DNA of 64,000 nt from positions 78,802,001 through 78,866,000 of the forward strand of contig NC_043002.1 of the NCBI RefSeq assembly GCF_006345805.1. The letters are read 5' to 3'. The notes beneath the pieces are model-generated. The model searched no databases, was not told the DNA's origin, and was given only the letters and a program-made list of their open reading frames with translations. Made by a program: the position numbers and the translations under genes. This document shows, piece after piece, positions 3,346-49,648 of this stretch. The first letter of the stretch is position 1; each line of letters begins with the position of its first letter. This DNA comes from Octopus sinensis. Lineage: Eukaryota.

Positions 3346-3743
3346 TCTTTATATATAAAAGTGAGGTTGTGTGCTGTCTGTCTCCTACGATTTAGATTCC
3401 TAACTACTCGCACATTTTGCAGTGCAGTTTAACCAAAACCGGGTATCATATAGTCGTGATTCATATCGAGCCCTTCTGGGTATTAGCACGCGTCTACGAT
3501 GAGTCTATGATTTAAAAAAAAAAATTACCATCAATTTTTCCCATTTTTAATGCATTTTTGGCATATACAAGGGAAGTAACTCTCTAAAAATTTATTATTA
3601 AATCTCAGAACGTAAAAAGCTACAGTAACACCCCCCCCTTTGTGGTTAGCCATATTGAGATGGCTATTATACTTTACATCTCTAAAAATGCTTATATAGT
3701 TATTTCCCTTACAAACCTGAGCAACACCGGGTGACACTGCTAG
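3346..3743 (+). mobile_element. Non-autonomous Helitron
   Basis: A|TC start (TCTTTATATATAAAA), subterminal GC hairpin remnant (CCTGAGCAACACCGGG), CTAG|T end, no TSD. Confidence 0.75.
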
Positions 3744-3761
3744 TATATATATATATAAAGT

Positions 3762-4010
3762 AAATAAGTAACAAGGATGTTGAGATATTAGTGCATTACG
3801 GCCGTTTCAGGTGGCTCCATTTAAGCAAACGATGCAGGCATTACATCAATTTGAAATACACTGCCTGAAACAGCTGTAATGCACTAATACCTTGACATCC
3901 TTGTTACTTATTTGCTTTTTATTCACCTTACTTCAAGCTGTGCAGATAATACCGGACTGACTTGGTGCCTCAACTTAAATACCTAATTCAACTGAATCTT
4001 AATTATTTCT

Positions 4011-18120: not shown

Positions 18121-18728
18121 GTTAATTTGAGGATGTTAGATCCACATTAAGGATTATATAATCTCAAAACATTCCACTGGTTAATCACTATCATACAATG
18201 AGAAAGTCTCTGTGATATGTTAAGAATTATTGTAGTAATACATATTAATATTGATAGAAAGAAAATGGAGAAAGATGGATGTATGAATAATTTATTTGTA
18301 TGATATAAAGATGTTGAAATTTAAAAAAATAATAATTCAAATAAATTATAAATTGTAAAGCTCAAAAAGAAAATGGGAGATGCGAAAAAGCCTACATATA
18401 TGTTTCAGTTCTAGCCCCTAGTTGATATGCAGTTCTAAGCATTTGGCTATATGCTAAGAATGGTATAATTTTTAACTATACGGGGCAGAACTTCTTCAGG
18501 GTTATCATGAGCTTATAGAACTAAAGTTAACTTGTTTCTTGGAAGGATGCATACAAAATAGAACTGAAACATATATGCAGATTTTTTCACATCTCCCATT
18601 TTCTTTTTAAGCTTTACAACTTATAATTTATTTGTATTATTATTTTAAAACAAAATTTCAATATCTTTATATCATGCAAATAAATTATTCATATATCCAT
18701 CTTTCTCCATTTTCTTTCTTTCAATATA
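18121..18728. mobile_element. Fold-back Penelope-like element remnant between TA-type microsatellites
   Basis: Inverted arms at about 18249-18413 and 18559-18728, an unpaired extension on the left, and a hammerhead on the minus strand. Confidence 0.7.
18388..18503 (-). ncRNA. Type I hammerhead motif with a long stem II insertion
   Basis: Minus strand reads AACC-CTGAAGA-AGTTCT-GCCCC...GGGGC-T-AGAACT-GAA-ACATATATGT-A-GGCT: 11-bp stem II with one bulge, palindromic stem III, GUA site, imperfect stem I. Confidence 0.7.
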
Positions 18729-18736
18729 TATATATA

Positions 18737-19762
18737 TGGGAAGAAACTAGAAGTAGTTGATAGCTTCCGCTACCTAGGTGACCATGTTAGTAGTGGGGGT
18801 GGATGCTCAGAGAGTGTTACCACTAGAATACGAATAGCCTGGGCAAAGTTTAGAAAGCTCTTCCCCTACTGGCGACAAAGAGTCTCTCATTCAGAGTGAA
18901 AGGTAGATTATACGATGCATGTGTGCGAACTGCCATGCTTCACGGCAGTGAAACATGGGCTGTGACTGCGAAGGACGTGTGTAGGCTTGAAAGAAATGAG
19001 GCTAGCATTATCTGCTGGATGTGTAATGTCAGTGTGCATGCACGACAGAGTGTAAGCGCCCTGGACAAGTTGGACATAAGAAGCATCGGATGTGGTGTGC
19101 AGGAGAGACGTTTGCATTGCTATGGTTATGTACTACAGATGGATGAGGAGAGATGTGTGAAGAAGTGCCATTCTCAAACAGTTGAAGGAATCCGGAGTAG
19201 AGGTAGACCCAGGAAGACATAAGATGAGGTGGTCAAGCATGACCTTCAAACATTGGGCCTCACAGAGGCAATGACAAAAGACCAAGACCTCTGGAGATAT
19301 GCTGCGACTGCGAAGACCCAACAAATGAAGTGATGGCCTGCTGTGATTACCTTGGATTGTAGGGCAACCTGCTGTACTTGAGGAGACCTATTGAGTCAAG
19401 TACATCAACATCAAAATAAAAATCAAATGGGAATTGTACTTGTGATACCCGTGCCAGTGACAGGTAAAAAACACTGTCCAAACATGGCTGATGCCAGCAC
19501 TGCCTTGACTGGCATCCCTGCCAGTGGCATGTAAAAGCACCAACCAATTGTGGACGTTGCCAGCCTCCTCTGGCCCTTGTGCCGGTGGCACGTAAAAAGC
19601 ACGCACTACACTCATGGAGTGGTTGGCATTAGGAAGGGCATCCAGCTGTAGAAACACTGCCAGATCAGACTGGTGCCTGGTGCAGCCTCCTGGCTTCCCA
19701 TGCGCTGGTCGAACCATCCAACCCATGCTAGCATGGAAAACGGACGTTAAACAATGATGATG

Positions 19763-46658: not shown

Positions 46659-48122
46659 CTTATTAATATTCTTATATTACCTATAATGTATTTGTATGTT
46701 TTTTTATTAGTTTTGATATAATGGATATTTCATGCCATTCATTTCAATAAATTTTGCCATCTAATATTTACTATCAATTTTTCCTGTATTTCATTTTATA
46801 TGAAAGTAAACATTGTAGAATAGATAAATTCTTGGTGAGTAATCCCACAAATAGGTATGAATATCTGGTTGCTTTGCTATCAGGTTATTTAAGCTTTGAT
46901 CTTAGTGTGCAGCACCTTTGGCAACTGCCTTTAACTATTAGCTTCAGTTAACCAAAACTTATCAATGGAATTTGGTAGACAGAAACTTTGCTAAAATTCA
47001 TCGTATATGTGTGTTTGTAAGGTGCAGACATGAGTATGGGCTACAGATACAGGTGTGGCTATCTGGTTAAGAAACTTGCTTCCCAATTATATGGTATTGG
47101 GTTCAGTCCCACTGTACAGCACCTTAGGCAACTGAGTTTCTGGTCTGAAGATAACTGCCCCACTCATTTTCTTCCACTATTCTTGTGAGGACCTGGAAAG
47201 GATCCCTTAATTTCTTTTTGGTTTTAAAAAATAAAAATTATGCTCATGTAAGAAATTAATCTCAAACAATTCAGGTTATATTTCATCTTATACCTTATAA
47301 TTCTAAAAATCTGTATAACTTTTTATAAATCATTGGGTCGAGAATCTTTTGACCTTTTTATCACAATCAGTTCGACTTCAAGTGGAAATGCTGCCTATTT
47401 TTAGTTATCTTGAACTTAAAGGTCAAAGAAAATGCCATTTATAAGAATTGCATTATTTTTACCTTTTGTCTTGCACCTTTGCTATGTTTTCTCTTATGTT
47501 ACCAATGTTATTTTGATATTCTGGTAACTCACTTCACCATGAAAAAATTTTGTGCTGTACTAAATCCAAAGTCACTTATGTTCATTTCATATCCATTAAT
47601 CAATATCTCAATGAAAAGTTATATTTATACAGGTTCATGTTTTTACTTGCCCTTTCATATTTCTTTCTCATCTGTCTGTTTACAACTGTCTTAGTTCTAT
47701 TTCTGTTTAGAAATAAACTAAGGAGTCTTCAATTTATAGTTTTCTAGGTGCAGATATGGATGTGTGGTTAATAAGCATGTGATTCAAGGTTCAATCTCAT
47801 TGTGAAGACCTTTAGGTGTGTGTGTTCTAGCAAAGCTTCCTGGTTGACAAACACTTTGAAATTTGGTAGACAAAGAGAATAACTGTGCTGAAACCCATTG
47901 TTTCACTCACAGTATATAACATTCATGCATACATATATACATATATATATATATTAATAATAGTAATAGTAACTTCTATGTATAATTTCAAAATTAGGCA
48001 ACAAATTTATAGACTACACAGTACAAAAATAGAGTAGCTCTATATTTAAGAGATGAGGAATTATGTACATTATTTACATTATTTACATTTGACGGATATT
48101 TGTCCTCATCTTGTTTGTTGTT

Positions 48123-48168
48123 AATACAACATTTCAGCTGATATACCCTCCAGCCTTCATCAGGTGTC
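48123..48168 (-). ncRNA. Hammerhead motif, inverted and partly decayed copy
   Basis: Minus strand reads GACAC-CTGATGA-A-GGCTG(gagggtatat)CAGCT-GAAAT-GTT-GTATT. Confidence 0.6.
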
Positions 48169-48448
48169 TTGGGGAAATTTCGAACCTGGGTTCTCATTCC
48201 TAAGGTATTTTTCAATGCTGTTATTATTATTATTATTATCATTATTCAGGTCACTGCCTGAATAGTAGCCTGTGCTCTTAACCACTACGCCATATGCTCG
48301 TGGGCATATGGCATAGTGGTTAAGAGCACGGGCTACTAACCCCAAGATTCTGAGTTCGATTCCAGACAGTGACCTGAATAATAATAATAATAATAATAAC
48401 ATCGAAAAATACCTTAGGAATGAGAACTCAGGTTTGAAATTTCCCCAA

Positions 48449-48494
48449 GACACCTGATGAAGGCTAGAAGGTATATCAGCTGAAACGTTGTGTT
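48449..48494 (+). ncRNA. Minimal type I hammerhead ribozyme motif
   Basis: GACAC-CTGATGA-A-GGCT(agaaggtatatc)AGCT-GAAAC-GTT-GTGTT: stem I GACAC/GTGTT, stem II, palindromic ACGT stem III, predicted cleavage after GUU. Confidence 0.75.
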
Positions 48495-48561
48495 AACAAC
48501 AAACAAAATGAGGACAAATATCTGTCAATTGTAAATAATGTAAATAATGAAAAATAGAGTA

Positions 48562-48792
48562 ATAATAAATCTCTGAGCGAGGTATAAACAGTAGCTGCAC
48601 GATATCGTGAAGTATATTTGCCACTTAAATGTGGCTAACCCCTAAGGGTAGATGCTACTGTAGCTTGTAGCATCCACCCTTAGGGGTTAGCCACAAGCTA
48701 CAGTAGCACCCACCCTTAGGGGTTAGCCACAAGCTACAGTAGCACCCACCCTTAGGCGGTTAGCCACATTTAAGTGGCAAATATTCTTCACG
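48562..48792. mobile_element. Fold-back element with an internal 36-bp tandem triplication and a 44-nt one-sided extension
   Basis: Left arm starts at 48606 (CGTGAAGTATATTTGCCACTTAAATGTGGCTAACC) and its inverse ends at 48792. The 36-bp unit starts at 48667, 48703 and 48739. Flanked by AAAAATAGAGTA at 48550-48561 and 48793-48804. Confidence 0.75.
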
Positions 48793-49648
48793 AAAAATAG
48801 AGTATTATAACAAAATAAATGACAGCTAATACAAAATGACTGTAGCTATCAAATATCACCAATTATTTTGTTTTAGGTGTTATTTATTTTCTATACGTAT
48901 TGGGGCGCTTGAGAAATAATTACGTGTTTCCAAAGAGAAGTTTGTGTAAAAAAAAAATCCATTTTATTCATTTATTTATTTCTTCTAAACAAAGTTTGAC
49001 TTACTATTTTCAAAATCTTTATTTCTGAAAATTCTACTGCCTATGAAATGTTCTAGTGATTAACATAAATGTTAATTTCTAGATGCTCTGGTGTGTATGA
49101 GGAATGTATAAGAGCTTCCCAGCTGAATGATCTTATCTTTTCTTGGGTTTGTTTTACAGAATGAGCACTTATATAATAAATATACAAAGGTACAATAAAT
49201 ACCTTTTGTTACTAAATGTGATCACTTTTGATATAATTCTTCGTTCGCATGATCAAATTGCTGGCAATAAATGTCTGTAATAATGTTTTAAAAAATTTTT
49301 TTTTTAATACCTCATAGCAGACAACACCATTCAGCTCTGGGGATGAAGTATTGGTTTCAGCACTGCTACTCTGGTAAAAGCGCATAGCTCACTTGCTAGA
49401 GTGTTAGGCTCACAATCATGAGGTAGTGAGTTTGATTCCCAGACTAGACTGTGCTATGTTCTTGAGCAAGACACTTTATTTCACATTACTCCAGTTATCT
49501 CGGCAGTAGAAATGAGTTTGTGACGTCACTGGTGCCAAGATGTAATGGTCTTTGCCTTTCCCATGATATACATGGATGACTGCAAGTCTTCCATAAACAA
49601 CCTTGCCTGGACTTGTGCCTTGGAGGGGAACTTTCTAGGTGCAATACC

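What the first reader, a model, noticed from the sequence alone, without database searches (positions are those of the whole stretch)
48025..48804. Two different fold-back elements stacked at one 12-bp target (AAAAATAGAGTA x3)
Seen: the 12-mer occurs at 48025, 48550 and 48793 and exactly brackets two unrelated elements, both with their extension on the left. Inference: sequential insertion at the same nick by an endonuclease with sequence preference, each event regenerating the target, or co-integration by template jumping.
Basis: partly seen in the sequence, partly recalled or inferred. Interest (0 to 1): 0.7.

Follow-up and report, generated by a model that had tools for sequence, protein, structure and literature searches.

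The report
Penelope target site reused three times
Two different folded-back jumping-gene fragments sit side by side between three copies of one 12-base sequence, likely because Penelope-type retrotransposon enzymes cut the same spot twice and the first insert's own ends rebuilt their preferred cut pattern; in one contig from a related organism a third such element starts at the same spot, which hints at a true re-insertion hotspot.

Summary
Observation confirmed. The 12-mer (48025, 48550, 48793) brackets two separate high-copy families; their junction occurs only here. E1 is the terminal repeat (pLTR) of a coding Penelope-like element (PLE). E2 is the 3' end of a ~350-bp tandem hammerhead repeat, retrozyme-like. 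Fold-back, one-sided tail and ~12-bp duplication are the normal insert form of both, and known PLE anatomy. Not found in print: the duplications sit in a symmetric AAC-N12-GTT consensus (G after the nick in 31 of 54 half-sites), and E1's ends improve both neighbouring copies as targets. In one contig of organism F a third family, E3, begins at the same junction. One E1+E2 stack per genome is near chance (0.05-2 expected); the third use is not (about 1e-4 to 3e-3) but rests on one low-depth contig. Best reading: sequential insertion at a regenerated target, E1 likely first.

The parts
48025..48036 (+). Target-site duplication copy 1. After E1 its context is TAC-[12]-GCT, top 0.9% of window positions under the dyad target model. 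In organism F a third family (E3) starts right after 48036.
48037..48067 (-). E1 tail, 31 nt: present only on the long arm (the stretch between two reverse-transcription start sites, by analogy with PAc).
   Evidence: family range 23-48 nt in 30 copies measured; PMC11167929
48037..48300 (-). E1 long arm: antisense copy of the PLE pLTR. It encodes the start of the PLE reading frame and has a locus-specific ~22-24-nt deletion near 48262.
48290..48311 (.). E1 fold-back centre, at a natural palindrome of the ORF-pLTR junction; 11 of 31 E1 fold-backs with a TSD carry this centre.
48301..48549 (+). E1 short arm: sense copy of the pLTR with A-box/B-box-like head (seen by eye; ARAGORN and Rfam find no tRNA), (AAT)n and hammerhead, ending at the short stop.
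48449..48494 (+). Minimal type I hammerhead motif of E1 (5-bp stem I, CUGAUGA, stem II, GAAA, palindromic AACGUU). Cleavage untested.
   Evidence: definition in PMC4209133
48550..48561 (+). Duplication copy 2, shared by E1 and E2. With the preceding G (48549) it reads AAT-[12]-ATT in the pre-E2 state, the likely E2 target register.
48562..48605 (-). E2 tail, 44 nt, on the long arm only.
   Evidence: family range 40-51 nt in 11 copies
48562..48671 (-). E2 long arm: antisense 3' end of a ~350-bp tandem hammerhead repeat. The hammerhead itself lies outside the part inserted here.
48667..48792 (+). E2 short arm, joined to the long arm over a 5-nt GTAGC overlap, with a 36-nt unit triplicated (likely slippage).
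48793..48804 (+). Duplication copy 3, followed by essentially single-copy flank.

Best explanation
This is a stack of two independent inserts, the pLTR of a coding Penelope-like element (E1) and the 3' end of a tandem hammerhead repeat (E2), likely pasted in one after the other by PLE enzymes at a target that the first insertion duplicated and improved. Inferred mechanism: a dimeric GIY-YIG nuclease nicks both strands just 5' of a GTT-like triplet, 12 nt apart (AAC-N12-GTT), leaving 12-nt 3' overhangs. Each overhang primes reverse transcription, one at the long and one at the short internal start site, and the two cDNAs join at a short inverted repeat. That gives fold-back + one-sided tail + 12-bp duplication. 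Because E1's long end begins G(C/T)T and its short end finishes AAT-G, both new copies of the duplication are re-armed: E2 likely used the right copy (one base left of E1's register), and in organism F the related family E3 likely used the left copy at E1's exact register. Shown: anatomy, family independence, TSD length, consensus, one E3 junction. Inferred: enzyme action, order, E2 register, hotspot status.
For: Families independent: 7,710 exact E1 long-end and 866 E2 long-end 17-mers in G000; the E1-to-E2 junction is at this place only. E1 follows the PLE ORF in 16 of 20 RT loci (one of the 20 is the query's own), and an inverted upstream copy lies in 9 of 20; RVT_1 E=6.5e-9. TSDs in 25 of 33 E1 fold-backs against 0-2 in mismatched-flank controls; length 12 is the mode in E1 (13 of 31), E2 (4 of 11) and E3 (13 of 22). 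Dyad: of 54 half-sites from 27 exact-12 TSDs, G at +1 in 31 (p 6e-11), T at +2 in 33, T at +3 in 34; 33 match GTT at 2 of 3 or more, against mean 10.4, max 15 at offsets 5-44. Site scores: empty 0.54 bits (top 13%), left copy after E1 3.86 (top 0.9%), right copy at shift -1 1.82 (top 5%) versus -2.64 at shift 0. E1's left junction is in organism C (piece 2); E2's right junction is in B and E (pieces 32 and 16). F: orthologous flank + 12-mer + the commonest E3 long start. PAc nicks and extends both strands, is predicted dimeric and has two RT starts (PMC11167929).
Against: The preference is weak (at most ~14-fold at the best copy) and the model was built on only 27 sites, 2 of them E2. Most E2 copies land in (TA)n, where TSD controls are uninformative (20 of 27 versus 6-10). 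E2's mobilising PLE was not found. The order is not proven: arm divergence does not separate E1 (17 of ~227) from E2 (3 of 53), and E2-first at register 0 scores only about 1.4 bits lower (my sum from the matrix). No empty allele and no allele with E1 alone was seen; C and F do not cover the right flank at all. The E3 evidence is one junction in one contig of depth 7.4. Other cross-family stacks were not found, so re-arming does not make stacking common.
Confidence: 0.72

Rival explanations
1. Locus-specific hotspot: beyond the weak sequence preference, this site (chromatin, or the cruciform-prone E1 fold-back next to it) attracts PLE enzymes, so several families hit it in separate lineages. 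This adds to the best explanation rather than replacing it.
For: The chance that one named site is re-used is about 3e-5 to 1e-4 for E2/E3-sized families and up to 3e-3 for an assumed 100,000 later insertions, yet E3 sits at the junction in F. One further same-register contact exists, an E1 short end abutting another E1/PLE insertion's TSD (L063/L192). PMC11167929 proposes nicking in the element's own pLTR.
Against: One contig only. Beside 7,710 E1 long ends no E2/E3 end was found in either orientation, so fold-back neighbours are not general magnets. The 12-mer is not a recurrent motif. L063 has no third TSD copy within 4 kb.
Confidence: 0.25
2. An ancestral triple array (TSD-E3-TSD-E1-TSD-E2-TSD), or ancestral polymorphism, with precise loss of whole fold-backs by slippage between the 12-bp repeats in different lineages.
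For: Hairpin inserts between short direct repeats are deletion-prone (recalled, not tested here). F probably also carries this E1 copy: a depth-6.5 contig crosses the E1 deletion junction that is unique in G000 (tables 3-4).
Against: C shares 9 listed flank variants with F against the window yet has E1, not E3, after the 12-mer, so two losses are needed instead of one gain. It still needs three insertions at one target.
Confidence: 0.08
3. Co-integration of E1 and E2 in a single event by template jumping.
For: Same orientation and adjacent; template jumps have been proposed for PLEs (PMC3846280 passages).
Against: The middle junction (E1 short end, TSD, E2 long start) needs priming from both strands of a second copy of the target. 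Each insert is a complete two-armed unit with its own family's tail length. E1 and E2 differ in typical targets.
Confidence: 0.06
4. A composite repeat that moved as one unit, or the 12-mer as part of an element.
For: The first 9 letters of the 12-mer match the E3 consensus just outside its long start.
Against: The junction is unique, the outer copies are identical to the middle one, and other copies have other TSDs.
Confidence: 0.02

Closest known systems
EN+ Penelope-like element insertions (Craig et al. 2021, PMC8557442, passages read; Arkhipova et al. 2013, PMC3846280, passages read)
   Same: Inverted 5'-truncated copy next to a pLTR, 30-40 bp one-sided tail, palindrome at the inverted junction, hammerhead in the pLTR, short TSD (8-10 bp in Adineta).
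   Different: Here the TSD mode is 12 bp with a symmetric AAC/GTT flank consensus shared by two families, and two different families share one TSD. The passages read describe neither.
PAc, Poseidon PLE of Anolis (Frangieh et al. 2024, PMC11167929, parts 1-3 of 4 read)
   Same: Nicks and extends both strands, predicted dimer, two internal RT start sites that define the tail, prefers an ATT motif, pLTR overlaps the ORF start.
   Different: The paper gives no stagger length or dyad target consensus and no cross-family re-insertion. The genomic consensus here is GTT first, ATT second.
Metazoan non-LTR retrozymes (PMC7229834, passages read; bioRxiv 10.64898/2026.07.22.740005, parts 1-2 of 5 read)
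   Same: E2 and E3 families: ~290-360 bp tandem units, type I hammerhead with 6-bp stem I and palindromic stem III, no ORF; mussel units are 350-390 bp.
   Different: Described there as tandem or monomer repeats with a rolling-circle model. Here they insert as PLE-style fold-backs with tail and 12-bp TSD. Circular RNA and cleavage were not tested.
TE tandem dimers by double insertion at one site (McGurk and Barbash 2018, PMC5932611, passages read)
   Same: The TSD lies between two elements; insertion preserves and copies the target; dimers favour better-matching sites.
   Different: The passages describe same-family dimers (P, jockey, hobo, R1) and the paper has no occurrence of 'Penelope'. 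Here the partners are different families and the element's own ends supply half of the new target.

Membership tests
EN+ Penelope-like element (E1 family) | PLE-type RT ORF followed by the repeat as pLTR | tested here: met
   E1 directly follows the ORF in 16 of 20 RT loci; RVT_1 above cut-off; E1 also opens the ORF in L150
EN+ Penelope-like element (E1 family) | C-terminal GIY-YIG endonuclease | tested here: inconclusive
   A GIY-YIG-like motif is seen by eye after the RT, but Pfam gave no hit on the decayed pieces tested
EN+ Penelope-like element (E1 family) | Minimal type I hammerhead in the pLTR | tested here: met
   Motif at 48449-48494 and in most of the first 30 loci; activity untested
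EN+ Penelope-like element (E1 family) | Inverted truncated copy, one-sided 30-40 bp tail, TSD | tested here: met
Penelope/Poseidon clade | RT phylogeny places it in the clade | not tested
   No tree was built; the clade label comes only from earlier scan notes
Non-LTR retrozyme (E2, E3 families) | Short tandem units with canonical type I hammerhead | tested here: met
   Periods 349-360 (E2 set) and 291-344 (E3); motif in 15 of 59 and 15 of 52 loci, the E2 count including a few other-family motifs. The window's E2 copy is too short to hold it.
Non-LTR retrozyme (E2, E3 families) | No coding capacity | tested here: met
   No PLE ORF hit adjoining E2 in 60 loci; one E3 locus of those searched abuts a PLE RT, link unresolved
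Non-LTR retrozyme (E2, E3 families) | Self-cleavage and circular RNA | not tested
tRNA-derived SINE (E1) | tRNA-related head with Pol III boxes, no own ORF | tested here: not met
   ARAGORN 0 of 7 loci, no tRNA match in Rfam; boxes seen by eye only; the head is part of a coding element's pLTR
MITE / fold-back DNA transposon | Terminal inverted repeats abutting the TSD at both ends, fixed element length | tested here: not met
   One arm always carries an extra tail and insert lengths vary from 120 to 1,102 bp
Double insertion at one target site (McGurk and Barbash) | TSD of the family's typical length at the junction, matching its target consensus | tested here: met
Double insertion at one target site (McGurk and Barbash) | Empty and single-insert alleles exist | tested here: inconclusive
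   Only single junctions were seen in contigs of organisms B, C, E, F

The most novel reading that the evidence does not exclude
The duplication beside a Penelope-type insert is a self-renewing landing pad: the element's own termini complete an AAC-N12-GTT dyad, and at some loci this makes a hotspot that different PLE machineries (one moving a coding element's pLTR, one moving retrozymes) hit at the same bond in separate lineages, here three times.
Probability: 0.25. Interest if true: 0.75.

Novelty: new variant of a known kind. Interest (0 to 1): 0.5.

Why it matters
How PLE nucleases choose and cut targets is still open (PMC8557442 passages). A symmetric AAC-N12-GTT site with a 12-nt 3' overhang, shared by a coding PLE family and a retrozyme family, gives a concrete substrate for the existing in vitro PAc assay. 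It also supports the view that animal retrozymes ride on PLE enzymes. Re-use of one bond by different families would make PLE insertions homoplasy-prone as phylogenetic markers and a seed for tandem arrays. If the third junction fails, the locus is a neat but roughly once-per-genome coincidence on top of known anatomy.

Tried and rejected
Composite repeat: rejected. 12-mer as a recurring recognition motif: rejected (this locus only). General stacking among the three families: not found. E2-to-E2 0; E1-short to E3-long 0; E1-long to E2/E3-long 0; E2/E3-short to E1-long 1 match, E1-short to E2/E3-short 2 matches, all judged chance by eye; 9 matches internal to E3; E1-to-E1 11 matches at 10 places, none a clean triple, one same-register contact (L063) and one apparent local duplication (L069). 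These are exact-pattern searches and miss diverged copies. Dating by divergence did not order E1 and E2. Rfam gave only sub-threshold hairpin-driven miRNA hits and a CRISPR-DR hit. ARAGORN found no tRNA (41). MFE folding did not give the hammerhead fold, and two of the three segments given were mis-placed. Search for the E2/E3 mobiliser: a young GIY-YIG family from L043 shares nothing with E2 beyond the source locus; the RT beside E3 in L186 has E3-like DNA near 2 of 24 other loci, in no clear pLTR position. F's 24 letters do not occur in the window. The missing cover of the right flank in C and F is unexplained and not used as evidence. The Pyatkov 2004 paper was not held; it is known here only through PMC11167929. 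Supplements were not read; those of PMC11167929 and PMC8557442 may hold target-site data.

Full report
Observation. The 12-mer is exact at 48025, 48550 and 48793. Between the copies lie E1 (513 bp) and E2 (231 bp), each an inverted pair of arms with an unpaired left extension of 31 and 44 nt. Copies 2 and 3 share a 13th letter, a preceding G. The genome is a 2.7-Gb animal assembly; 'octopus' is my guess and the wording of earlier scan notes, not something I tested.

What the parts are. E1 has 2,745 first-look candidates (40 scored) and 7,710 exact copies of a long-end 17-mer. It follows the end of a reverse-transcriptase ORF in 16 of 20 loci and lies inverted upstream in 9 of 20 (RVT_1), and it encodes the start of that ORF. 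So it is a PLE pLTR, with a minimal hammerhead motif (defined in PMC4209133, part 1 of 4 read). A GIY-YIG motif is seen by eye only; Pfam missed it. E2 has 2,158 candidates and 866 long-end 17-mers, part of them from a sister family sharing the tail. Longer copies form 349-360-bp tandems with a canonical type I hammerhead, as in non-LTR retrozymes (PMC7229834 passages; bioRxiv 2026.07.22.740005 parts 1-2). The window holds only its last ~110 nt. Its mobiliser was not found.

The anatomy is normal for these families. Of 99 E1 loci, 46 showed both arm ends and 31 a non-simple TSD; of 60 E2 loci, 27 and 11 (three of these still TA-rich); the mode is 12 bp (each set includes the window's own copy). 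In the first 60 E1 loci, 25 of 33 fold-backs had a TSD against 0-2 in mismatched controls; for E2 the control is weak because most copies sit in (TA)n (20 of 27 versus 6-10). Tails are family-specific. This is the published PLE form (PMC8557442 passages; PMC3846280 passages). PAc biochemistry explains it: both strands are nicked and extended, and two internal RT starts define the tail (PMC11167929). From the geometry I infer 12-nt 3' overhangs that each prime a cDNA. The arms meet at short inverted repeats: a palindrome at the ORF-pLTR junction for E1 (11 of 31 copies) and a 5-nt overlap for E2.

Target consensus. I kept the 27 TSDs of exactly 12 bp, dropping the window's own, the TA-rich ones and all other lengths. 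Their 54 half-sites read G, T, T after the nick in 31, 33 and 34 cases. Offsets 5-44 in the same flanks give G in 5-17 of 54. Both E1 (12 sites) and E3 (13 sites) show it; E2 gives only 2 sites. Under this model the empty site is middling (top 13%). After E1, the left copy is in the top 0.9%, and the right copy, shifted one base left, is in the top 5%, while unshifted it scores below average. The shift fits the shared G and E2's commonest start and stop. This favours E1 first, but only modestly, and divergence does not settle the order. Paper searches found no such dyad consensus for PLEs; subscription papers and supplements were not seen.

Is the stack special? The E1-E2 junction is unique. 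Seven other junction patterns found no cross-family stack and no clean triple, apart from one same-family same-register contact without a third TSD (L063). With the measured copy numbers and a 3.5- to 14-fold preference, 0.05-2.3 exact stacks per genome are expected. One is therefore unremarkable, and double insertion at a preserved TSD is known for other elements (PMC5932611 passages).

Other organisms. I laid contigs of 5 of the 24 listed runs. B and E carry E2's right junction with the right flank (pieces 32 and 16). C carries the left flank, the 12-mer and an E1-like start (piece 2; 8 differences in 80 letters). In F one contig (depth 7.4) follows the left flank for 437 letters through the 12-mer (piece 17) and goes on with 24 other letters. 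These have 1,060 near-copies in G000 and are the commonest long start (9 of 18) of a third fold-back hammerhead family, E3, related to E2, with 12-bp TSDs in 13 of 22 copies. F probably also has this E1 copy: a depth-6.5 contig crosses a deletion junction unique in G000 (tables 3-4). That is read from table rows, not from a spanning contig. So E3 likely entered the left copy, the best-scoring one, at E1's exact register. Chance re-use of a named site is about 1e-4 to 3e-3 even with preference (the upper figure assumes 100,000 later insertions). Against this: one junction, low depth, no empty allele, and C and F lack cover of the right flank.

Verdict. The elements and their anatomy are known kinds, already noted elsewhere in this genome by the scan (no sequence or stacking match). 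What is added is a testable dyad target with a 12-nt stagger, re-arming of the target by the element's own ends, and a single-contig sign of a third use. Interest 0.5; hotspot reading 25%.

Noticed in passing
L134-L153 (G000), window 48290-48380: The pLTR of the coding E1 PLE opens with an A-box/B-box-like head directly after the ORF end, preceded by a palindrome at which many fold-backs are centred. Already noted by earlier scan reports.
   Followed up: partly
L105-L129 (e.g. L106-L108, L128): A second ~360-bp tandem family shares only the ~40-nt tail with E2 and stops at the same distance, which points to the tail as the cis signal for a common mobiliser.
   Followed up: no
L154-L178; A very young PLE family (150 scored GIY-YIG regions 96-100% identical, open frames up to 789 aa) that may still be active; a candidate for biochemistry.
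   Followed up: no
L293-L314; A second young PLE family related to the RT beside E3 in L186, with open frames of 778-854 aa.
   Followed up: partly
L063/L192: An E1 short end abuts the left TSD of a truncated PLE insertion in exact register; no third TSD copy within 4 kb.
   Followed up: yes
L069: The left junction of an E1 fold-back is repeated right after its right TSD, like a local duplication or aborted second priming.
   Followed up: no
window 48025-48033: The first 9 letters of the 12-mer equal the E3 consensus just outside its long start; chance or primer-template pairing is unresolved.
   Followed up: partly
window 48805-49250: Much of this essentially single-copy right flank has no or almost no cover in organisms C and F although the left flank is ~96% alike.
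   Followed up: partly
window 3617-3677, 3753-3922, 18238-18737: A diverged E2-like piece and two other inverted-repeat stretches in the window.
   Followed up: no
window 48812-48890: A 38-nt, 79% inverted repeat just right of the third 12-mer.
   Followed up: no
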